Assembly: GCA_030648395.1 (NCBI GenBank)
Contig: JAUSHW010000185.1
Span: 1 to 40,797 of the forward strand
Length of the DNA stretch: 40,797 nucleotides
Source: Nitrospirales bacterium
GTDB taxonomy: Bacteria > Nitrospirota > Nitrospiria > Nitrospirales > NS-4
Reading direction: 5' to 3'
Position 1 is the stretch's first letter. Every line of letters starts with the position of its first letter. Below the pieces are notes generated by a model. The model did no database searches. It saw only the letters and a list, made by a program, of their open reading frames with translations, and was not told where the DNA came from. Shown here piece after piece: positions 1,708 to 13,918 of the stretch. A program made the position numbers and the translations under genes.

Positions 1708-3493
<1,786 letters not shown>

Positions 3494-3515
3494 GTGTACC
3501 TCCTGCGTTCGGTCG

Positions 3516-3556
3516 AATAAAAAATGGCGCCAGTCCATAACCAGACTGGCGCCATT
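3516..3556 (-). terminator. Intrinsic terminator (attenuator) in the leader of amtB copy 2
   Basis: Minus strand AATGGCGCCAGTC-tggttatg-GACTGGCGCCATT followed by TTTTATT, ending just upstream of the amtB RBS. Confidence 0.85.
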
Positions 3557-3626
3557 GCCAGGAATCCTTGAAACCCGGGTCGACGATGACCCGTTTGGAA
3601 CTCATGGGCCCGCGCCATTGCGAGCC
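3546..3626 (-). promoter_or_regulatory. ANTAR-binding multi-hairpin RNA element
   Basis: GGCTCGC-AATGGC-GCGGGCC (3607-3626) and CTGGC-AATGGC-GCCAG (3546-3561): hexaloops with A1/G4 closed by C-G. The second is mutually exclusive with the terminator. A third A1/G4 hexaloop stem, CGGGTC-ATCGTC-GACCCG, lies at 3576-3593. Confidence 0.8.
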
Positions 3627-5129: not shown

Positions 5130-7826
5130 TCATTTCCGCTGCGCACTGGCCCGGTGCACGACCGGGCTTGACGTCTTCGATCCTCCCACAAACCCTTCAA
5201 TCCGGGCCGTTATTTCTTCGCTGATCAACTTGCACCCGCCGAGATTGGCGATCTTGCCGCCGGCCTTGTCCGTGACATAGAAGACATCCACGACCTGGTC
5301 CAGCCTGGTCGAAATCCGTGCCGCATGGACAGACAGGCCGAGATCAAAAATCGCGCGCGTGATGACGTAGAGCAAGCCCTGCCGGTCGTCGGCGAACACG
5401 TCGATGATGGTGTACCGATCGGAGGTCTCATTGTCGACTTGGACCACCGTCGCTTCGCGCAGGGGAACCCCCTGGCGGGCCTGGCCGAAACGGGTGGCAT
5501 CCTGCAGAAGATCCTCCACCGAGCAGCGCTGTTCCAGGACACCGACGATGGCGCCGCTGATCTCCTCGAACCGGCGATCGCGAATGTCCTCATGGCAATC
5601 CGGGTCCATCACGCGGAACACGTCCACCACAACCCCGTCGGCAAGCGTCAATATCTGGGCATCCAGGGTCTGTACGCCCTTGGCCGCCAGGACGCCGGCG
5701 ATTTTCGAAAAAATTCCAGGCGTTAGGCTGTCCTTGGTGTACACCGTGTAGTCGCTCGTGCCAAGCGCCTCATCGTATTGCACGTCCACCAGCGCAGGCG
5801 CATCGGCCAGTTTGGCAAGCCACTCCAGGTGCGTGACAAGCCGTTCGACCGGCATGGCTGTGAGATAATGGTCAGGCCACGACTCCAATTGCCTGGCGAG
5901 CCATGCCGAGGGGTAGCGTGGCTCCAAACGGGCCAGCGCGGCCTGGCGAATCTGCTCGGCGCGGGCGCCTCCCTCGTACGCCGTTTCGGCTTCCTCTCCT
6001 CCCGCAAGCTCCTTATGCGTCTTCATGAAGAGATCGCCCAGCAGCGTGTCTTTCCAGGGCGTCATGACTCCCGGCCCGACCGCCGAGATATCGGCCGCCG
6101 TGAGCACGAGCAGCATCTTCAGCGCCTCGGGAGTGCCGACCTGACGGGCAAACCTCAGCACGACCTTCTCGTCGGAGGAGTCGCGGCGGAATGCGGTGTT
6201 GGCCATCACGAGATGTTGCCGCACCAGGAAGACCAACAGCTGAGTTTCGTGTTCATCCAGGCCAAGGCGTTTGGCCACATCGAGGGCGATCCGCTCCCCG
6301 ATCAGGCTGTGATCCTCTTCCTGGCCCTTGCCCACATCGTGAAGCAGCACGGCCAGGTGCAGGAGGTCCTTGCGTCTGGTCTCGCGATAGACCCGTCCCA
6401 CGAGGCCCTTTCCCGCGCCCAGCTCCTCAGCCTGGCCGACGGCCAGCAGGCTGTGATGGTCCACCGTGTACTTGTGATAGGCGTTGAACTGCATGAGGCC
6501 ACGGACCGTTCCGAACGCCGGCACGATCCGTTCCAGCAGGCAGACTCGGTGCATCGCGGCCAGGGTGTCGGCGACGCGCCCGGGGCCGGACAGAATCGAA
6601 AGGAACCACCGTCTCGCCGTGTCGCTTTGAAACGCCGAGTCAGGCATGGCAGCGATGCGCTCGGGGAGTTCCTGAACGAGGTCATCGGCCACGTTCAGGC
6701 CGTACATTTGGGCCAGGTGAAAGAGCCGCAGGATGTGACCGCCATCCGATAGCGCGTCGGCCCGAAGGTCAGTCGGCACAGTGATGTCGTCCCGCGTCAG
6801 GGCAAAATAGCGCTCGATGCGACGTGCCGGCAACCAGGCGACAAGGCGTTGCCAGGCTGTTCGCTGCATCGCCTGCGAGACGAACCGCGTGGTGAGATCG
6901 CAGACCCGTGTCGAATGACGGTAATACTGCTGCATAAACTGTTCGACCGCCAGGAGGTGCGGGAGATCCTTGAACCCGCGCAGGCCGGCGATGCGGATCT
7001 GCTCTTCAAAAGTCAAAATGTCCTGGGCGCGAAACGCATAAAAGTGGAGGTCGTTTCGGACCCGCCAGAGAAACTCCTGGGCGTCACAGAGCGCCGTGGC
7101 GTCTCTGGCGCTCATCAATCCACGTGTCGAGAGTTCCTCGATCGACGACGTTCCGTACCGCGCCAGGGCCGTCCACTTGAGCAGATGTAAATCCCGCAGC
7201 CCGCCCCGCCCCTTTTTCAGGTTGGGCTCGAGGAGGAAATTGGTCGAACCGAACCGGCTGTACTCCTGCCGCCGCTCCTCGCGCTTGTTGGCAAGAAATC
7301 CCTGCACGCCTTTTCCGGAGACCTCGGCTCGATAGTTCTGCGTGAACTCGATGAACAGCTCCCGATCACCCGCCAGCCAGCGTGCTTCCATCAAGGCCGT
7401 GCGCACGGTGAGATCCGACTTGCCCATCTCCAGACAATCCGCGATGGTCCGCAGGCTGTGACCGATCTGAAACCCGAGATCCCAGAGGGTGTGCAGGATT
7501 GCCGTGGACAGGGCCCCGGCCTGCTTCGCGCAGGGAGGCGCATACAGAAACATAAGGTCGATATCGGAGTACGGCGCCAGCTCGCGACGCCCATAGCCGC
7601 CGAGGGCCACAAGGGCGATGCCGGACTGACCAGACATCCCGGAGGCCCCCAGATTGGCGTGATAGAGATCCAGCAGAATCTCATCCGCCAGGTCGGTCAG
7701 CGAGGTCACGATTTCCACGCCGGTGGCGCCGCGCGCGTGCGCCCCCTCGATCGCCTGCCGGCGGGCATCAAGAGCAGCCCTCGTCCATTGGACGCCGGCC
7801 ATCTGGTTGAGCACCGATTCCATCAT
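5130..7826 (-). CDS. glnD: Bifunctional PII uridylyltransferase / uridylyl-removing enzyme
   Basis: GGYGR..SDIDL nucleotidyltransferase motif, EPNLK..GGLRD, H.YTVD.H, HD motif LHDVGKG, two C-terminal ACT domains (DRQGLL). Confidence 0.95.
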   Translation of the reverse strand: MMESVLNQMAGVQWTRAALDARRQAIEGAHARGATGVEIVTSLTDLADEILLDLYHANLGASGMSGQSGIALVALGGYGRRELAPYSDIDLMFLYAPPCAKQAGALSTAILHTLWDLGFQIGHSLRTIADCLEMGKSDLTVRTALMEARWLAGDRELFIEFTQNYRAEVSGKGVQGFLANKREERRQEYSRFGSTNFLLEPNLKKGRGGLRDLHLLKWTALARYGTSSIEELSTRGLMSARDATALCDAQEFLWRVRNDLHFYAFRAQDILTFEEQIRIAGLRGFKDLPHLLAVEQFMQQYYRHSTRVCDLTTRFVSQAMQRTAWQRLVAWLPARRIERYFALTRDDITVPTDLRADALSDGGHILRLFHLAQMYGLNVADDLVQELPERIAAMPDSAFQSDTARRWFLSILSGPGRVADTLAAMHRVCLLERIVPAFGTVRGLMQFNAYHKYTVDHHSLLAVGQAEELGAGKGLVGRVYRETRRKDLLHLAVLLHDVGKGQEEDHSLIGERIALDVAKRLGLDEHETQLLVFLVRQHLVMANTAFRRDSSDEKVVLRFARQVGTPEALKMLLVLTAADISAVGPGVMTPWKDTLLGDLFMKTHKELAGGEEAETAYEGGARAEQIRQAALARLEPRYPSAWLARQLESWPDHYLTAMPVERLVTHLEWLAKLADAPALVDVQYDEALGTSDYTVYTKDSLTPGIFSKIAGVLAAKGVQTLDAQILTLADGVVVDVFRVMDPDCHEDIRDRRFEEISGAIVGVLEQRCSVEDLLQDATRFGQARQGVPLREATVVQVDNETSDRYTIIDVFADDRQGLLYVITRAIFDLGLSVHAARISTRLDQVVDVFYVTDKAGGKIANLGGCKLISEEITARIEGFVGGSKTSSPVVHRASAQRK

Positions 7827-9707: not shown

Positions 9708-10592
9708 TTAGAAGTTGATGTCCAACTGGACGGTCCACTTCCACTGACCGTTGATGACGTGGTCGTTGAACCAGACCGGCCCCGTCAGAAGACTGATGTC
9801 CTTATTGAAAAAGTGGTACATGCCGAAGCCGCCGCCGCCGATGGCGTTCTTTCCGCTGGCGTAGTCGGCCGCAAAGACCCACTTATTGTATTCGTTGCCT
9901 TCCTTGTCCTTGACCTTCCAGAATCCATAGTCGTACCCGACCATGCCGCCGGCGTTATCCAGTTTGCCGCTGCTGCTCGCGGCGCAGGTAAGGACGGCAA
10001 GGGCGGCATTGGCGGAGGCCACCGGCTTGCATCCTCCCTGCCGCATCAGAGCGGAATCGGGGTTTCCGTAATACCCTCCCCCGTGAATCCGTCCGAATGG
10101 ACCGAGCGTCTTCCCAACGATGAGATCCACGATATTCATGTTCGTGACCTCACCTTTTGTGCCCGCATTGAAAATTCCGACATTGATGGCCGGAGACCAA
10201 GCGCCCCACGCTCCTTCCGGCGTCCCAAGCTTGGCGTTGAACATCAGGGACTCCCCGATGGACTGCATCGTCGGATGCATCCGGGTCCCGGGAAACATTC
10301 CGTCGATACCGATCTCCAATTGCAGTTTTTCGAACGGAAGGACGCCGACGGTCAGGCCGACGTCAGTGGGAAAGGAGTCGAACTGGTTTCGGACACCGGT
10401 GACTCCTGTAATTTCCTCGGTCGTCTGGGAGAGCCGAAAATAGTTGTCCACCCCGATGTGCCAGACGTTAAAGGGCTGAACATCAGAGGTTGCGGGAGTC
10501 CAGTAGGTCGTGGACGGAGTGGCTGAAGCCGTCCCCGATACCGCGAGGATCAAAAACAATAATGCAATTATGATGCGTCCTGATAGCGTCAT
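9708..10592 (-). CDS. Uncharacterised exported protein, probable outer-membrane beta-barrel
   Basis: AAAGGAGG RBS before ATG 10592; signal peptide ending ASA; about a dozen amphipathic Gly/aromatic beta-strand segments; C-terminus WKWTVQLDINF resembles a BAM beta-signal. Confidence 0.7.
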   Translation of the reverse strand: MTLSGRIIIALLFLILAVSGTASATPSTTYWTPATSDVQPFNVWHIGVDNYFRLSQTTEEITGVTGVRNQFDSFPTDVGLTVGVLPFEKLQLEIGIDGMFPGTRMHPTMQSIGESLMFNAKLGTPEGAWGAWSPAINVGIFNAGTKGEVTNMNIVDLIVGKTLGPFGRIHGGGYYGNPDSALMRQGGCKPVASANAALAVLTCAASSSGKLDNAGGMVGYDYGFWKVKDKEGNEYNKWVFAADYASGKNAIGGGGFGMYHFFNKDISLLTGPVWFNDHVINGQWKWTVQLDINF

Positions 10593-10691
10593 GGTCGTGT
10601 CGCCTCCTTTTACGTGTTTCGACATCACATCCTCACTCTCATCTCTGTCTACCCATCGTCTCCGCCCGCACTCCGCTGTGCGGCAATGCCG

Positions 10692-12434
10692 TCAGTAACT
10701 GCGGTAGCGATTCGTGATCGGCATCCGCCGATCCTTTCCCAATGCCCGGTGCGTGATCTTGACGCCGGGCGGCGACTGGCGGCGCTTGTACTCGCTACGA
10801 TCCACGAGCGCCATGACTTTTTCGACCGTTTGTCTGTTAAATCCAGCCGCCAGCAGATCGGCCTTCCCCTGGTCCTCTTCGACATACCCTCGAATGATCG
10901 GGTCCAGCACCTCATACGGGGGAAGGGAATCCTGATCCGTCTGGTTGGGGCGCAATTCAGCCGTTGGCGGCCTGGTCAAGACTCGTTTGGGAATCACCGG
11001 ATCGGCCTCACGCCCGTTCCGCCACCTGGCAAGCTCGTATACCAGCGTCTTGGGCACGTCCTTGATGGCGGCAAATCCGCCGGCCATATCGCCGTATAGG
11101 GTGGCGTACCCGACACTCATCTCACTTTTGTTCCCCGTCGTCAGGACAAGCCATCCGTATTTGTTGGACAGCGCCATCAGGAGATTCCCGCGAATTCTCG
11201 CCTGCAGGTTTTCCTCGGTCACATCCGACGGCCGCCCCTTGAAAATCGGCGCCAGCAGCGAGATATAGTCGTGAAAAACCGGCGTAATGGGCAGACTGTG
11301 GAACCTGATCCCAAGGCGTCGGGCCACAGCTTTGGCATCCTCCCGGCTCTCCACTGACGAGTACGGAGACGGCATGAACACGCCGATAACATTCTGCGCG
11401 CCCAGCGCGTCCACGGCCAGGACCGCGGTCAGCGCCGAGTCAATGCCCCCGCTCAGACCCAGCACCGCCTTCTGGAATGCGTTCTTTCTGGCATAATCGC
11501 CGATGCCAAGCACCAGCGCCCGGTACACTTCCTCCAGGGGAGACGGCACGGCAGGAATACCTCCATGCACCAGACTGCGGCGGACAGGACGGTAGCGTGC
11601 AGAAAGGACCACCTTGTCGACGGTGACGCCCCTTCGCTCAAGCAAGCGCCGGTCGCCTCTCCTGCGCGTGTCATGCAAGCGGGCGCGCGACACGGCATCG
11701 ACGTCCACGTCGGCAACCACCAGATCCTCCTCAAAGGCCCGGCCACGGGCAACAATGCCGCCGCTCTGATCCACCACCAGGCTGTTCCCATCAAACACCA
11801 GCTCGTCCTGCCCCCCGACCAGATTGGCGTACGCCACTACCGCCAGATTGTCCATGGCGCGCGTGGCCAGCATCTCCTCTCGAAAGCGAAGCTTGCCCCT
11901 CTGGTAGGGCGAGGCACTGATGTTGATGATCACTTCCGCGCCCCCAACCAACGATTGCGCGCGTGTCGGGCCTTCCGGGAACCAGATGTCTTCACAGATG
12001 TTGAAGCCTATCGTGATGCCGTTCAGAACCACCACAGACGATCTGTGGCCTGCCTGGAAATAACGGTTCTCATCGAAAACCCCATAGTTGGGAAGATAGG
12101 TCTTATGCTGTGTGGCCACGACCCGTCCGTCACTGATAAACGCGGCGGCGTTATAGACGTCGTTCTGACAGTCGGCGAAGCCCACCACGGCGGCAATCCC
12201 CTTCTTGACCTTCCGGGTGACCCTGTTCAGAGCGGCCAGGTTGTCGGCAATGAACTGGGGGCGCAGGAGAAGGTCTTCCGGTGGATACCCCGTCAAGGTC
12301 AGCTCGGGAAACACGACCAGATCGGCGCCTGCCTCGCGGGCCGCGGACACCCCACGGAGCACGAGCGCCGTATTTCCGGCAAAATCACCGACGGTCGTGT
12401 TGATCTGGGCCAGAGCGATTCTCAGCAGTCTCAT
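10692..12434 (-). CDS. nadE: Glutamine-dependent NAD+ synthetase
   Basis: Nitrilase-like domain (FPEL, K.YLPNY.VFDE.RYF, ICEDIW) fused to the synthetase domain (GLSGGIDSA, ENLQAR, TGNKSE..GY.TLYGD, PTAEL, EYKRRQ). Confidence 0.96.
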   Translation of the reverse strand: MRLLRIALAQINTTVGDFAGNTALVLRGVSAAREAGADLVVFPELTLTGYPPEDLLLRPQFIADNLAALNRVTRKVKKGIAAVVGFADCQNDVYNAAAFISDGRVVATQHKTYLPNYGVFDENRYFQAGHRSSVVVLNGITIGFNICEDIWFPEGPTRAQSLVGGAEVIINISASPYQRGKLRFREEMLATRAMDNLAVVAYANLVGGQDELVFDGNSLVVDQSGGIVARGRAFEEDLVVADVDVDAVSRARLHDTRRRGDRRLLERRGVTVDKVVLSARYRPVRRSLVHGGIPAVPSPLEEVYRALVLGIGDYARKNAFQKAVLGLSGGIDSALTAVLAVDALGAQNVIGVFMPSPYSSVESREDAKAVARRLGIRFHSLPITPVFHDYISLLAPIFKGRPSDVTEENLQARIRGNLLMALSNKYGWLVLTTGNKSEMSVGYATLYGDMAGGFAAIKDVPKTLVYELARWRNGREADPVIPKRVLTRPPTAELRPNQTDQDSLPPYEVLDPIIRGYVEEDQGKADLLAAGFNRQTVEKVMALVDRSEYKRRQSPPGVKITHRALGKDRRMPITNRYRSY

Positions 12435-12448
12435 CGTGCCACAGCCCC

Positions 12449-12505
12449 AAAGAAAAAACGTCCTCCCGCCACGGGCACCTCAATTGGTGCCCGGCAAGAG
12501 GACGT
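12449..12505 (-). terminator. Intrinsic terminator 2 (attenuator) in the nadE leader
   Basis: Minus strand ACGTCCTCTTGCC-GGGCACC-aattga-GGTGCCC-gt-GGCGGGAGGACGT followed by TTTTTCTTT, 14 nt before the nadE ATG. Confidence 0.85.
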
Positions 12506-12612
12506 CATCGTCCATAAACAGAAACGGCGCCTTTCCCTTCACAGCGTAGGAGCCCCGCTACCGTGCTCCCAAAGGGAAAGACGCCGTCGTCGATTAGCAC
12601 ACCATCGTGCTA
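12500..12612 (-). promoter_or_regulatory. ANTAR-like hexaloop hairpins (G1/G4 variant) in the nadE leader
   Basis: TAGCAC-GATGGT-GTGCTA (12595-12612), GAC-GACGGC-GTC (12580-12591, overlaps the 5' arm of terminator 1) and GGAC-GATGAC-GTCC (12500-12513, overlaps the 5' arm of terminator 2). Confidence 0.7.
12516..12587 (-). terminator. Intrinsic terminator 1 (attenuator) in the nadE leader
   Basis: Minus strand ACGGCGTCTTTCCCTT...AAGGGAAAGGCGCCGT (16 bp with one G-U, structured 32 nt loop) followed by TTCTGTTT. Confidence 0.7.
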
Positions 12613-12617
12613 GGGGT

Positions 12618-12647
12618 CTTATACAGAACCTTTCCCCTGCATGTCAA
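12618..12647 (-). promoter_or_regulatory. Sigma70-type promoter for the nadE-amtB-glnA operon
   Basis: TTGACA (12647-12642), 18 bp spacer, TATAAG (12623-12618); the predicted start near 12611 coincides with the 5' end of the first hairpin. Confidence 0.7.
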
Positions 12648-12649
12648 GG

Positions 12650-13918
12650 CTATTTTCCCGCCACCCGCTTGTCGAGATCCCCGGCGAGCAGAATGGCCTC
12701 GGCAATCTCACGCATCGATCGTCGTGTATCCATGCTCTGACGCTGCATGACCCGAAACGCGTCTTCCTCCGTGATATGCTTGCTTCGCATGAGCTGGCCT
12801 TTGGCGCGTTCGACCAGCTTGCGCACCTCGAGCGCCTCCTGCATTTCAAAGGACTTCTCCATCAGGCTTGTATTCTCGATCGTGATCGCTGCCTGATTGG
12901 CGACTGCCTGCAGTATTTTAATTTCCTCAGCGGTAAACAGATGTTCGTTCGCCGTGTAGCTGTTAATGACTCCGATCGGCTTGTTTTTCACCAGCATGGG
13001 CACCGACAGCAGCGAGCAGAGTCCTTCTTTACGCGCCAGGTCCGGGTACGTATAGCCGGGGTCTTTCGTCACATCCAAAACCGCAATGGGACGGCGATCC
13101 TTGAGTGCGCGGCCGCTGATGCTTTGTCCGACCTTCAGGTTCGGCTTTCTGCGATAGCTCTCGCTCAGGCTCTGCGTGGCGGCGATGCGGAGTTCGTCAT
13201 GCTCCTGGTCCAGCAGCATGATCGAACAGATCGCCGACCCCATCATCTCCGCCGTCATGGTCACCAGAAGATGCAGGACTTCTTCCAGGAGACGCCCTGA
13301 CGTAATGGTCGCACTGACCTGGGAGAGCGTTTCGACCTGGCGGGCCTTGTGCGTGATTTCCGCATGGAGCCGGGCAGTCTCGATCGCGCCGCCGACCTGA
13401 CACCCCATCGTGGTCATCAGTGCAACCTCATCGGAACGATACCGGTGGGGCTGCTTGTGCTGAACGTTGATGACCCCGATCACCTCTCGTTTGGCGATGA
13501 TCGGCACGGAGAGGAACGCCTGGTGGCGGTCTTCGGGAAGGTTGTGGAACACCTTGAATCGGGGGTCGTCGCTGGCATTGCTGGCGATCGCCACGTGTGT
13601 CCCCTGCTGGGCCACCCATCCGGTAATCCCTTCACCAAGGCCCAAGCGGATGCGGCCGATCAATTTGGGATGAGGGTTCTGGGACGCCCTGAGGATGAGC
13701 TCATCCCGGCGAGGGGTCAGCAAATAGATGAAACAGGAGTCGGCCTTGGTCACCTCGACAGCGATCTCGACAATATCGCGCAGGACCGCATCGAGGTCGA
13801 GATTTCCGCTAACCGTTTCACTGACATGATGCAGAATCTCGGCTTCCCGCGTCTTGTCGCGGAGCGCACGCTGCAGAGCGGCGACCGACACCTGGCTCTT
13901 TTGCTTCATTCCGGCCAC
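12650..13918 (-). CDS. GAF-GAF-ANTAR one-component RNA-binding antiterminator
   Basis: Two tandem GAF domains (GEGITGWV..DPRF..LSVPI..IGVINV; GQSISG..LLSVPM..IGVIN) and C-terminal ANTAR (LEVRKLVERAKGQLM..TEEDAFRVMQRQSMDTRRSMREIAEAIL); GTG start with GAGGGGAG RBS. Confidence 0.92.
   Translation of the reverse strand: MAGMKQKSQVSVAALQRALRDKTREAEILHHVSETVSGNLDLDAVLRDIVEIAVEVTKADSCFIYLLTPRRDELILRASQNPHPKLIGRIRLGLGEGITGWVAQQGTHVAIASNASDDPRFKVFHNLPEDRHQAFLSVPIIAKREVIGVINVQHKQPHRYRSDEVALMTTMGCQVGGAIETARLHAEITHKARQVETLSQVSATITSGRLLEEVLHLLVTMTAEMMGSAICSIMLLDQEHDELRIAATQSLSESYRRKPNLKVGQSISGRALKDRRPIAVLDVTKDPGYTYPDLARKEGLCSLLSVPMLVKNKPIGVINSYTANEHLFTAEEIKILQAVANQAAITIENTSLMEKSFEMQEALEVRKLVERAKGQLMRSKHITEEDAFRVMQRQSMDTRRSMREIAEAILLAGDLDKRVAGK

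What the first reader, a model, noticed from the sequence alone, without database searches (positions are those of the whole stretch)
12449..12647. Tandem double attenuator with non-canonical G1 ANTAR-like loops upstream of nadE
Seen on the minus strand: TTGACA-N18-TATAAG; hairpin P1 (C-GAUGGU-G); P2 (C-GACGGC-G), whose 3' half starts terminator 1; then P3 (C-GAUGAC-G), whose 3' half starts terminator 2. All three share AC-GAYGRY-GU. Known: the characterised ANTAR motif is two hexaloops with A1 and G4 and usually one terminator. Inference: three hairpins controlling two terminators in series could give tighter or sequential control, and G1 replacing A1 may tune affinity or indicate a different ANTAR specificity. 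Searches that require A1 would miss this element.
Basis: partly seen in the sequence, partly recalled or inferred. Interest (0 to 1): 0.82.

Follow-up and report, generated by a model that had tools for sequence, protein, structure and literature searches.

The report
Tandem ANTAR attenuator before nadE operon
The stretch is a real, conserved RNA switch in which three small hairpins guard two transcription stop signals in front of a nitrogen-assimilation operon, most likely read by the RNA-binding regulator encoded just upstream; it is an unusual layout of a known kind of switch, not a new kind.

Summary
On the minus strand, 12647-12449 holds a conserved TTGACA-N18-TATAAG promoter, three AC-GAYGRY-GU hairpins (P1, P2, P3) and two long hairpins with U-tracts (T1, T2). 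T1's 5' arm overlaps P2 and T2's overlaps P3.

The gene just upstream is the genome's only ANTAR-domain protein (GAF-GAF-ANTAR). Downstream lie nadE, a 306-aa ORF, amtB, glnB, glnD and glnA. The three-hairpin, two-terminator layout occurs in 16 of 17 close-family Nitrospirales genomes. Loop G4 is invariant and both terminator stems covary.

G1 does not mark a different specificity. Orthologous loops swap A and G at position 1. Two other attenuators in this genome (before amtB2 and before nirC-nirA) carry canonical A1/G4 loops. The domain keeps the EutV residues that read G4.

More distant Nitrospirales, including Nitrospira moscoviensis, have a canonical A1/G4 dual hexaloop with one terminator before nadE. 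P2 and P3 resemble that ancestral pair, so T1 and P1 look like family-specific additions (inferred).

No binding or transcript data were obtainable. Verdict: a new variant of a known kind (ANTAR antitermination of nitrogen genes), of moderate interest.

The parts
12650..13918 (-). GAF-GAF-ANTAR regulator gene (422 aa), the only ANTAR-domain gene found in this genome
   Evidence: Pfam: GAF_2 9.6e-44 (two stretches) and ANTAR 4.4e-20. A PF03861 search of the whole assembly gave one match (the assembly is 92% complete). The domain aligns to Rv1626, EutV and NasR structures.
12618..12647 (-). Sigma-70-type promoter: TTGACA (12647-12642), 18 nt, TATAAG (12623-12618). The -35 hexamer abuts or overlaps the regulator's stop codon.
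   Evidence: Sequence. TTGACA-N17/18-TATAAR (or TATACA) is present in 15 of 15 close-family leaders, while the spacer varies. The simple promoter scanner did not call it, because the last base is G. No transcription start data exist.
12595..12612 (-). P1 hairpin UAGCAC-GAUGGU-GUGCUA (6 bp, hexaloop with G1 and G4)
   Evidence: -6.7 kcal/mol and keeps a hexaloop when folded alone. Paired in 100% of 16 orthologues, with 2 pairs showing compensatory double changes. Loop position 4 is G in 16/16; position 1 is G 13 / A 3.
12580..12591 (-). P2 hairpin GAC-GACGGC-GUC, the antiterminator of T1 (its loop positions 4-6 and 3' arm form the start of T1's 5' arm)
   Evidence: Stem and loop positions 1, 4, 5 and 6 are invariant in 16/16, so covariation cannot test it. 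Alone it is predicted to fold as GACG-ACGG-CGUC, a tetraloop with G1:C6 closed, at -2.7 kcal/mol. It has the same GAC...GUC stem and xAYGRC loop as the upstream hexaloop of more distant nadE leaders.
12516..12585 (-). T1: terminator-like hairpin (5' arm 12585-12572, 3' arm 12539-12526) plus tail GUUUCUGUUU (12525-12516)
   Evidence: -42.2 kcal/mol, 0/200 shuffles. The basal 14 pairs are 92.3% paired across 16 orthologues, with 2 pairs changed on both sides and 5 on one side. The apical part ranges over 34-93 nt total length. The tail has 6-9 T in 10 in 16/16. The U-tract is interrupted in this genus.
12500..12513 (-). P3 hairpin GGAC-GAUGAC-GUCC, the antiterminator of T2
   Evidence: Stem invariant in 16/16. 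Loop G4 in 16/16; position 1 is G 11 / A 5. Alone it is predicted to fold as GGACG-AUGA-CGUCC at -5.8 kcal/mol. A homologous GGAC-AAWGRC-GUCC hairpin plus terminator is found in 40 of 64 more distant loci.
12449..12505 (-). T2: intrinsic terminator (stem 12505-12458) plus U-tract UUUUUUCUUU (to 12449)
   Evidence: -40.5 kcal/mol, 0/200 shuffles. Of its 18 pairs, 7 show double changes and 87.8% of cells are paired across 16 orthologues. A T-rich tail was scored in 14 of 16; the other two (L008, L012) were mis-parsed by the script but read T-rich by eye.
10692..12434 (-). nadE (glutamine-dependent NAD synthetase), the first gene controlled. It is followed on the same strand by a 306-aa ORF, amtB, glnB, glnD and glnA.
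   Evidence: Pfam: NAD_synthase 6.4e-76 plus CN_hydrolase 6.1e-34. Downstream genes.

Best explanation
The 215-nt spacer is the 5' leader of a nitrogen-assimilation operon (nadE, a 306-aa ORF, amtB, glnB, glnD, probably glnA). It is transcribed from its own conserved promoter and carries two intrinsic terminators in series.

By default the nascent RNA folds into T1 and then T2, and transcription stops before nadE. When the adjacent GAF-GAF-ANTAR protein is active, its ANTAR dimer binds the small hairpins as they emerge. The likely trigger is a nitrogen-status signal sensed by the GAF domains (inferred). The dimer would bind P1 first, then P2, which withholds the 5' arm of T1. It would then bind P3, which withholds the 5' arm of T2, so the polymerase reads through both stops.

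Three hairpins serve two terminators. P2 and P3 correspond to the canonical dual hexaloop found before nadE in other Nitrospirales. T1 (built in the P2-P3 linker) and P1 are additions of this family.

G at loop position 1 is a tolerated, family-derived replacement of A, read by the same regulator. G4 is the fixed recognition base.

Shown here: the anatomy, its conservation and covariation, the gene context, the single ANTAR gene, and the conserved G4-contacting residues.
Inferred: protein binding, the order of binding, the signal, and that both terminators work in vivo.
For: 1. Anatomy: the MFE fold is P1 + T1 + T2, z = -6.86. P2 and P3 each overlap a terminator's 5' arm.
2. Thermodynamics: T1 is -42.2 and T2 is -40.5 kcal/mol, against -2.7 for P2 and -5.8 for P3. 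Termination is therefore the default, and a factor is needed to favour the small hairpins.
3. Regulator: the upstream gene is GAF-GAF-ANTAR and the only ANTAR gene in the assembly. Aligned to EutV (6wsh), it has R, K, F and M at chain positions 144, 151, 166 and 174. I equate these with the paper's Arg142, Lys149, Tyr164 and Met172, which contact G4 or plug the loop (PMC8934654). The offset of 2 is my inference.
4. Conservation: the regulator has full-length orthologues in 28 of 41 genomes searched, and nadE follows in 24 of those 28. In 16 leaders of the close family, the antiterminator pairs are 100% paired and the terminator structure is 91.6% paired, with 11 pairs changed on both sides and 0/500 shuffles reaching the observed covariation score. 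G4 is 16/16 in each loop.
5. Regulon: two further attenuators of the same build lie before amtB2-glnB2 (window ~3626-3516, minus strand) and before the nitrite transporter and nirA on contig C115.
6. Ancestry: 40 of 64 more distant loci have GGAC-AAWGRC-GUCC plus a terminator. Of those 40, 21 also have an upstream AC/GU-closed hexaloop partner (mostly GAC...GUC stems) 16-32 nt away, and none has a T-rich tract between the two by the script's rule. N. moscoviensis has promoter, GGGGAC-AAUGGA-GUCUCC, 22 nt, AGGAC-AAUGAC-GUCCU with terminator, then nadE.
7. Precedent for tandem units: nitrite-transporter leaders L041, L044 and L045, and locus L068, each carry two hexaloop-guarded terminators in series; L044 and L068 read as full two-hairpin units.
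8. Literature: ANTAR targets are hexaloop hairpins overlapping terminators and cluster at nitrogen genes (PMC3369931). A single hexaloop is the minimal site and binding is proposed to be successive, P1 then P2 (PMC8934654).
Against: - No experimental or transcript evidence. The two RNA runs found hold only short fragments from relatives.
- The P2 and P3 stems never vary, so covariation cannot support them. Their conservation could equally reflect the terminator arms they overlap.
- A at loop position 1, a defining feature of the published motif, is absent from all three loops here.
- Free P2 and P3 are predicted to close into tetraloops, which might disfavour ANTAR binding.
- T1's U-tract is interrupted in this genus (GUUUCUGUUU), so T1 may be a weak terminator.
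- P3 has no hexaloop partner close by (P2 is 66 nt upstream), whereas for EutV a linker lengthened to 14 nt already reduced induction (PMC3369931).
- The consensus scanner called neither the promoter nor the terminators.
- The assembly is 92% complete, so a second ANTAR gene cannot be excluded.
Confidence: 0.75

Rival explanations
1. Only T2 is the regulated terminator. T1 is a structured spacer that brings an upstream hexaloop close to P3, as the hairpin-containing linkers do in related leaders, and it terminates little or not at all. P2 is then a by-product of T1's conserved 5' arm.
For: - Related leaders have dual hexaloops separated by 16-37 nt, some containing a hairpin and no U-tract (L018).
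- T1's tail in this genus is interrupted (GUUUCUGUUU), and in L012 and L016 it is poorer still (6 T in 10).
- The P2 stem shows no covariation.
- Leaders of family f3 work from P3/T2 alone, with no recognisable partner.
Against: - A T-rich tail follows T1 in 16/16 orthologues, and it is a clean U6 run in genus g4.
- P2 loop positions 1, 4, 5 and 6 and its stem are invariant in 16/16.
- P2 lies 2-8 nt after P1, the spacing of a canonical dual hexaloop.
- No T-rich tract occupies that position in any of the 40 more distant leaders, so it is a specific gain.
- Two full attenuators in series exist elsewhere in the order.
Confidence: 0.13
2. The G1 loops mark a distinct recognition code: either a different RNA-binding regulator, or an ANTAR protein with changed specificity.
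For: - All three loops in the window have G1.
- P2 has G1 in 16/16 orthologues.
- Published definitions require A1 (PMC3369931, PMC10783516).
Against: - Position 1 alternates A/G at homologous P1 and P3 loops and at the middle hairpin of the nirC leaders (4 A, 4 G).
- One ANTAR gene was found in the genome, alongside A1/G4 attenuators in the same genome.
- The residues that read G4 in EutV are kept, with Tyr replaced by Phe.
- A1 is not contacted in the EutV-RNA structure.
Confidence: 0.05
3. The element is not ANTAR-controlled. The two hairpins simply terminate transcription of the upstream regulator/aro genes, or they respond to another mechanism, and the small hairpins are incidental.
For: - There are no binding data.
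- Hexaloop R..G.. hairpins are common in this genome: 9,192 with stems of 4 bp or more on both strands.
- Triple clusters of such hairpins are not enriched.
Against: - A conserved promoter lies between the regulator's stop codon and P1, so the terminators sit in a 5' leader.
- G4 and the AC/GU closing pairs are invariant in all three hairpins over 16 genomes.
- The same hairpin-over-terminator design recurs before other nitrogen genes.
- The synteny with the ANTAR gene is conserved.
Confidence: 0.05

Closest known systems
EutV / eutP-type ANTAR dual-hexaloop antiterminator (Enterococcus faecalis; PMC3369931, PMC8934654)
   Same: - Short hairpins with six-base loops and G at position 4.
- The downstream hairpin shares bases with the 5' arm of an intrinsic terminator.
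- The regulator has an ANTAR domain and keeps the Arg/Lys/aromatic/Met positions that bind the loop.
- Several terminators can be controlled by one regulator.
   Different: - The sensor is GAF-GAF, not a phospho-receiver.
- Loop position 1 is G here, not A.
- Two terminators lie within one leader and are served by three hairpins, not four.
- P2 and P3 are 66 nt apart, far beyond the 5-12 nt linkers of the eut leaders.
- The target genes are nitrogen assimilation and NAD synthesis.
GnfR antitermination sites of Geobacter nitrogen-fixation genes, consensus CAGGCAANGGCGCC (PMC2995071, passages read)
   Same: - Nitrogen-regulated genes.
- An ANTAR regulator.
- The site reads as GGC-AANGGC-GCC, the same loop family as AARGGC / GACGGC in the leaders here.
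- The site overlaps termination signals.
   Different: - GnfR is a response regulator activated by the kinase GnfK.
- Loops have A1.
- No tandem arrangement appears in the passages I read.
NasR / nasF and NasT / NalA nitrate-assimilation leaders (PMC12591593, PMC10783516)
   Same: An ANTAR protein, a two-hairpin hexaloop leader, one terminator, and nitrogen assimilation genes including nitrite reductase.
   Different: - Sensing is through NIT/NasS, not GAF.
- A1 and G4 were both shown to be needed there.
- There is a single terminator.
Canonical nadE leader of other Nitrospirales, e.g. Nitrospira moscoviensis (L133)
   Same: - The same gene (nadE).
- The same promoter type.
- The same terminal hairpin (A)GGAC-RAUGAC-GUCC(U) over a terminator.
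- An upstream GAC...GUC hexaloop.
   Different: - One terminator only.
- Both loops are A1.
- The linker is 22 nt.
- There is no P1.
- In N. moscoviensis the leader lies about 10 kb from the regulator gene, not beside it.
Tandem riboswitches and tandem T-box leaders (recalled from general knowledge; no call)
   Same: Two regulated terminators in series in one leader, expected to lower basal expression and sharpen the response.
   Different: Those sense a ligand or a tRNA directly through RNA. Here a protein is the sensor, and one hairpin appears to be shared between the two units.

Membership tests
ANTAR-target RNA (dual-hexaloop antiterminator, as defined in PMC3369931) | Two short stem-loops (at least 3 bp) with six-base terminal loops, joined by a short linker | tested here: met
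   P1 (6 bp) and P2 (3 bp) lie 3 nt apart (5 nt counted after GUGC). They are 100% paired in 16 orthologues. Caveat: free P2 and P3 are predicted to close to tetraloops through G1:C6.
ANTAR-target RNA (dual-hexaloop antiterminator, as defined in PMC3369931) | A at loop position 1 | tested here: not met
   All three loops in the window have G. Orthologues: P1 has A in 3/16, P2 in 0/16 and P3 in 5/16. Homologous hairpins of more distant relatives have A in 40/40. Published structural work finds no protein contact to A1.
ANTAR-target RNA (dual-hexaloop antiterminator, as defined in PMC3369931) | G at loop position 4 | tested here: met
   16/16 in each of P1, P2 and P3.
ANTAR-target RNA (dual-hexaloop antiterminator, as defined in PMC3369931) | The 3' hairpin is mutually exclusive with an intrinsic terminator | tested here: met
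   P2 overlaps T1 and P3 overlaps T2. In each case the 10-nt segment from loop position 5 onward is perfectly complementary to the terminator's 3' arm, which ends at a T-rich tract.
ANTAR-target RNA (dual-hexaloop antiterminator, as defined in PMC3369931) | A cognate ANTAR-domain protein is encoded in the genome | tested here: met
   The adjacent gene has an ANTAR domain at 4.4e-20. It is the only PF03861 match in the assembly.
ANTAR-target RNA (dual-hexaloop antiterminator, as defined in PMC3369931) | The protein binds the RNA and causes read-through | not testable with these tools
The RNA runs were uninformative.
Intrinsic (Rho-independent) terminator | A stable G+C-rich hairpin directly followed by a U-tract | tested here: met
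   T2: -40.5 kcal/mol with UUUUUUCUUU. T1: -42.2 kcal/mol with an interrupted tail, GUUUCUGUUU. T-rich tails occur in 16/16 orthologues for T1 and in 14/16 scored plus 2 read by eye for T2. The consensus scanner called neither. Function was not tested.
Rfam families (release 15) | A match at the gathering score | tested here: not met
   There were 0 matches in the window at gathering thresholds. In 12380-12700 there were only chance-level hits (best E = 0.073, far below gathering).

The most novel reading that the evidence does not exclude
The leader is an overlapping, 'shared-hairpin' double attenuator. An ancestral dual-hexaloop ANTAR site (P2...P3/T2) acquired a second terminator inside its own linker and a new upstream hairpin (P1). 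P2 is then both the second hairpin of unit 1 and the first hairpin of unit 2. One ANTAR dimer would hand itself over from P1 to P2 to P3 along the nascent RNA. That would be a natural three-step instance of the successive-binding model proposed for EutV. In P2 and P3, G1:C6 closure would keep the minimal antiterminator stems folded until the protein opens them. The same GAF-GAF-ANTAR protein would be a master post-initiation regulator of core nitrogen assimilation in Nitrospirales (nadE, amtB, glnB, glnD, glnA, and the nitrite transporter with nirA).
Probability: 0.3. Interest if true: 0.6.

Novelty: new variant of a known kind. Interest (0 to 1): 0.45.

Why it matters
- **A1 is dispensable in nature.** This is natural comparative evidence that position 1 of the ANTAR hexaloop need not be A: it behaves as a purine here, while G4 is fixed. 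That agrees with the EutV-RNA structure and means A1-restricted searches under-count targets.
- **How attenuators are elaborated.** It shows how a protein-dependent attenuator can grow by building a second terminator into the linker of an existing two-hairpin site. The expected effect is lower leakiness and a steeper response for an operon that spends glutamine and ATP.
- **An uncharacterised regulator gets a predicted regulon.** The GAF-GAF-ANTAR architecture is assigned predicted targets covering central nitrogen assimilation in Nitrospirales, an order that includes the nitrite oxidisers important in the nitrogen cycle and in wastewater treatment. I found no report of ANTAR regulation in Nitrospira (the 8 papers listed, of 9 holding both words, have unrelated titles and 1-2 occurrences each; none was opened).
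- **A testable system exists.** A canonical version of the leader occurs in the culturable N. moscoviensis, so the predictions can be tested.

Tried and rejected
- **Consensus promoter/terminator scan of 12300-12800.** It found nothing, because its rules do not fit a -10 hexamer ending in G or long bulged terminators.
- **Rfam at gathering and at E-value thresholds.** No relevant family was hit.
- **First genome-wide terminator scan by RNAfold.** It called 5213 of 5716 T-tracts 'terminator-like' and gave 388 mostly coding-region hits. It was abandoned as non-specific and replaced by the strict complementarity scan.
- **Counting clusters of three hexaloop hairpins.** There was no enrichment of R..G.. 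or A..G.. over control loop classes, so 'three hairpins' alone is not evidence. Only terminator overlap and gene context discriminate.
- **Transcript evidence.** Two metatranscriptome runs held 7-9% of the sampled words. When laid on the window they gave six short pieces (33-162 nt, 88-98% alike) in coding parts and none on the leader. This says nothing about expression either way.
- **A second hexaloop partner for P3 made of T1's 3' arm plus its U-tract (GGGGAA-GGCGCC-UUUUUU).** It is present in most genus g4 leaders, but it is out of register in this genus and built mostly of G-U pairs. I judged it an incidental consequence of T1.
- **An upstream partner hairpin in family f3 leaders.** RNAalifold predicts only the terminator.
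- **The hairpin CCGCAC-AGCGGA-GUGCGG between nadE and the next gene.** It has an A1/G4 loop but no terminator or partner, and was not pursued.
Full report
**What is there.** All coordinates below are on the minus strand.
- The stop codon of a 422-aa gene is at 12652-12650.
- It is followed directly by TTGACA (12647-12642), an 18-nt spacer and TATAAG (12623-12618).
- P1 is UAGCAC-GAUGGU-GUGCUA (12612-12595).
- Three nucleotides later comes P2, GAC-GACGGC-GUC (12591-12580).
- T1 is a long hairpin with its 5' arm at 12585-12572 and its 3' arm at 12539-12526, followed by GUUUCUGUUU (12525-12516).
- P3 is GGAC-GAUGAC-GUCC (12513-12500).
- T2 is a second long hairpin (12505-12458), followed by UUUUUUCUUU (to 12449).
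- The nadE start codon is at 12434.
- The last three loop bases and the 3' arm of P2 form the beginning of T1; the last two loop bases and the 3' arm of P3 form the beginning of T2.

The 181-nt leader folds to -94.6 kcal/mol as P1 + T1 + T2 (z = -6.86, 0 of 200 shuffles as stable). Folded alone, T1 gives -42.2 and T2 gives -40.5 kcal/mol. P1, P2 and P3 give only -6.7, -2.7 and -5.8 kcal/mol. The terminator fold is therefore the default.

The simple consensus scanner called neither the promoter nor the terminators. The -10 hexamer ends in G, and both terminator stems are long and bulged.

**Context.**
[quoted passage not shown] It is the only PF03861 match in the assembly, which is 92% complete.
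- It follows aroB with a 38-nt gap.
- Downstream on the same strand lie nadE (glutamine-dependent type), a 306-aa ORF without a Pfam match, amtB, a PII gene, glnD and glnA. After another leader come a second amtB, a second PII gene and a GAF-sigma54 activator.
- Named relatives place the lineage in Nitrospirales.

**Conservation.**
- The regulator has full-length orthologues in 28 of 41 genomes searched, counting the window's own.
- nadE follows within 27-252 nt in 24 of those 28. Of the other four, L011's contig ends inside the leader, and L006, L017 and L019 have other DNA downstream.
- Sixteen leaders of the window's family align well (A1).
- On that alignment the P1/P2/P3 conformation is paired in 100% of cells. 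Only P1 varies, with 2 pairs showing double changes. The P2 and P3 stems are invariant, so covariation says nothing for or against them.
- The P1/T1/T2 conformation is paired in 91.6% of cells, with 11 pairs changed on both sides, and 0 of 500 shuffles reach the observed covariation score. With the 3' partners slid by 1-3 columns, pairing falls to 43-54%.
- T1 varies from 34 to 93 nt in total length while its base and T-rich tail persist (6-9 T in 10, 16/16). T2 is likewise followed by a T-rich tail.
- The promoter hexamers are present in 15 of 15 close leaders, while the spacer varies.

**The loops.**
- Position 4 is G in 16/16 for each hairpin.
- Position 1 is G 13 / A 3 in P1, G 16 / A 0 in P2, and G 11 / A 5 in P3.
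- G1 is therefore not a fixed signature. Homologous loops swap purines between species.

**Other targets in the same genome.** I ran a strict genome-wide scan for a hexaloop hairpin whose 3' part is re-paired over 10 nt immediately before a T-rich tract. It returned 152 hits of any loop type. Six had R1/G4 loops with perfect complementarity:
- the two nadE sites;
- one site before the second amtB (window about 3626-3516, minus strand);
- one site before a formate/nitrite-family transporter and nirA on contig C115;
- two that look like ordinary gene-end terminators.

The amtB2 and nirC leaders each carry three hexaloop hairpins ahead of one terminator, with canonical A1/G4 loops: AAUGGC, AUCGUC, AAUGGC in one, and AUCGCC, AGGGUA, AAAGGC in the other. 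A genome with one ANTAR gene thus presents both A1 and G1 sites. In orthologous nirC leaders the middle hairpin again alternates between A (4 leaders) and G (4 leaders) at position 1, with G4 fixed.

**The protein.** The ANTAR domain matches Rv1626 (6.8e-11), EutV (1e-08) and NasR (2.1e-06). In the EutV alignment it has Arg, Lys, Phe and Met where the EutV chain has R144, K151, Y166 and M174. I equate these with Arg142, Lys149, Tyr164 and Met172 of the paper (offset inferred). They are the residues reported to bond or stack on G4 and to plug the loop (PMC8934654, passages read). The same paper states three further points:
- A1 makes no specific contact, and may be conserved to prevent cross-loop pairing.
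- A single hexaloop is the minimal site.
- The dimer probably binds P1 and then P2 successively.

**Wider comparison.** I took 80 named loci plus the window. These overlap with the species already seen through the G handles and are not independent of them.
- Sixteen of the 17 loci whose regulator is at least 79.6% identical have the three-hairpin, two-terminator leader. The exception is L050, which has no nadE downstream.
- Of the other 64 loci, 40 have GGAC-AAWGRC-GUCC followed by a terminator. All 40 have A at position 1.
- Of those 40, 21 also have an upstream AC/GU-closed hexaloop (mostly GAC...GUC stems) 16-32 nt away, and 19 have no partner by my rule.
- None of the 40 has a T-rich tract between the partner and the terminal hairpin.
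- The remaining 24 loci have no such hairpin next to the regulator gene.

In N. moscoviensis the regulator is not followed by nadE. About 10 kb away, however, lies a canonical leader: TTGACA...TATAAA, GGGGAC-AAUGGA-GUCUCC, 22 nt, AGGAC-AAUGAC-GUCCU over a terminator with U9, and then nadE.

The window's P2 (GAC-GACGGC-GUC followed by UUUCCC) closely resembles the upstream hairpin of such leaders, for example GGGAGAC-AACGGC-GUUUCCC in L063 and GGCGAC-AACGGC-GUCGCC in L125. P3 matches their terminal hairpin. From this I infer, without proof, three things:
- P2 and P3 are the ancestral pair.
- T1 arose in their linker, using P2's 3' side.
- P1 was added as a new upstream partner.

Two attenuators in series also occur in the nitrite-transporter leaders L041, L044 and L045 and in locus L068; L044 and L068 read as full two-hairpin units. 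Tandem ANTAR units therefore recur in this order. The version here is a compressed one.

**Mechanism proposed.**
- Default: transcription from the leader promoter, or read-through from the regulator gene, ends at T1 or at T2.
- Induced: the active GAF-GAF-ANTAR dimer captures P1, then P2 (blocking T1), then P3 (blocking T2).
- Two terminators in series should multiply termination efficiencies, giving a tighter off-state and a steeper response.
- The signal sensed by the GAF domains is unknown. Nitrogen status is the obvious guess from the regulon.

**What G1 may do.** With G1 and C6, free P2 and P3 are predicted to fold as tetraloop hairpins with one extra G-C pair. P2's stem is only 3 bp, so this pair may keep the nascent antiterminator folded. 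Equally, it could reduce affinity, because the protein must open the pair. The direction of the effect cannot be decided here.

**Comparison with what is known.**
- ANTAR antitermination at hexaloop hairpins, and its association with nitrogen genes (PII, ammonium transporters, nitrite transporters and reductase, glutamine synthetase), are established predictions or findings (PMC3369931, passages read).
- The Geobacter GnfR site GGC-AANGGC-GCC belongs to the same loop family (PMC2995071).
- Departure from A1 is already recorded for actinobacterial targets, where conservation is described as '>50%' (PMC8164766).
- GAF-ANTAR proteins were described as uncharacterised in 2012. In the passages I read of a 2025 review they appear only as a listed architecture, and the word 'tandem' occurs 0 times in its text (PMC12591593).
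- One search found no paper pairing ANTAR with tandem, two or consecutive terminators. Another found none on ANTAR in Nitrospira. Searches pairing ANTAR with nadE or 'GAF-ANTAR' gave nothing relevant.

**Limits.**
- There are no binding, transcription or transcript-end data. The two RNA runs found gave only short fragments from relatives.
- The relatives are kin, so counts across them overstate independence.
- The P2/P3 homology argument rests on short motifs.
- The assembly is incomplete.

**Verdict.** The interpretation as an ANTAR-type tandem attenuator is supported, and the 'different specificity' reading of G1 is not. This is a new variant of a known kind, of moderate interest.

Noticed in passing
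window 3516-3626 (minus strand), between glnA and the second amtB: A second ANTAR-type attenuator. It has three A1/G4 hexaloop hairpins: GGCUCGC-AAUGGC-GCGGGCC, CGGGUC-AUCGUC-GACCCG and CUGGC-AAUGGC-GCCAG. The last one overlaps a terminator that ends in UUUUUUAUU.
   Followed up: partly
L032 (G000:C115) about 6213-6356, minus strand; contig coordinates about 12212-12355: A third attenuator in the same genome. It has hairpins AAGCGC-AUCGCC-GCGUUU, GGGGC-AGGGUA-GCCCC and UGGC-AAAGGC-GCCA plus a terminator, upstream of a formate/nitrite-family transporter and a ferredoxin-type nitrite reductase. Orthologous leaders are conserved in 7 other family f1 genomes.
   Followed up: partly
L041, L044, L045 (nitrite-transporter leaders of family f2) and L068: Two ANTAR attenuators in series within one leader, each terminator guarded by its own hexaloop hairpin; L044 and L068 read as full two-hairpin units. 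Some upstream hairpins have G1 loops such as GCUGAA, GGUGAA and GACGCC.
   Followed up: partly
L133 (N. moscoviensis record; G041:C1 about 1186000-1186300): A canonical nadE leader with a promoter, two A1/G4 hexaloops 22 nt apart, one terminator with U9, and then nadE. It lies about 10 kb from the GAF-ANTAR orthologue, not adjacent to it.
   Followed up: partly
window 10666-10683 (minus strand), between nadE and the 306-aa ORF: An isolated hairpin, CCGCAC-AGCGGA-GUGCGG, with an A1/G4 hexaloop. No partner hairpin or terminator follows it.
   Followed up: no
window 9708-10628 (minus strand): A 306-aa ORF between nadE and amtB with no Pfam match and a hydrophobic N-terminus. By position it could be an outer-membrane or porin-like protein, but this was not tested.
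   Followed up: no
window 3493-3538 (minus strand): The mechanical ORF start for the second amtB (ATG at 3538) lies inside the attenuator's terminator. An in-frame ATG at 3493, preceded by GGAGG, is the more likely start.
   Followed up: no
L006 / L050 (same genus): In one species of the same genus the regulator gene is not followed by the leader or by nadE; unrelated sequence follows. I did not check whether nadE and a leader lie elsewhere in that genome.
   Followed up: no
L022-L027 (family f3 nadE leaders): These leaders keep only the terminal hairpin GGGAC-AAAGGC-GUCCU with its terminator. No conserved upstream hexaloop partner is predicted. This suggests a single hexaloop may suffice there.
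   Followed up: partly
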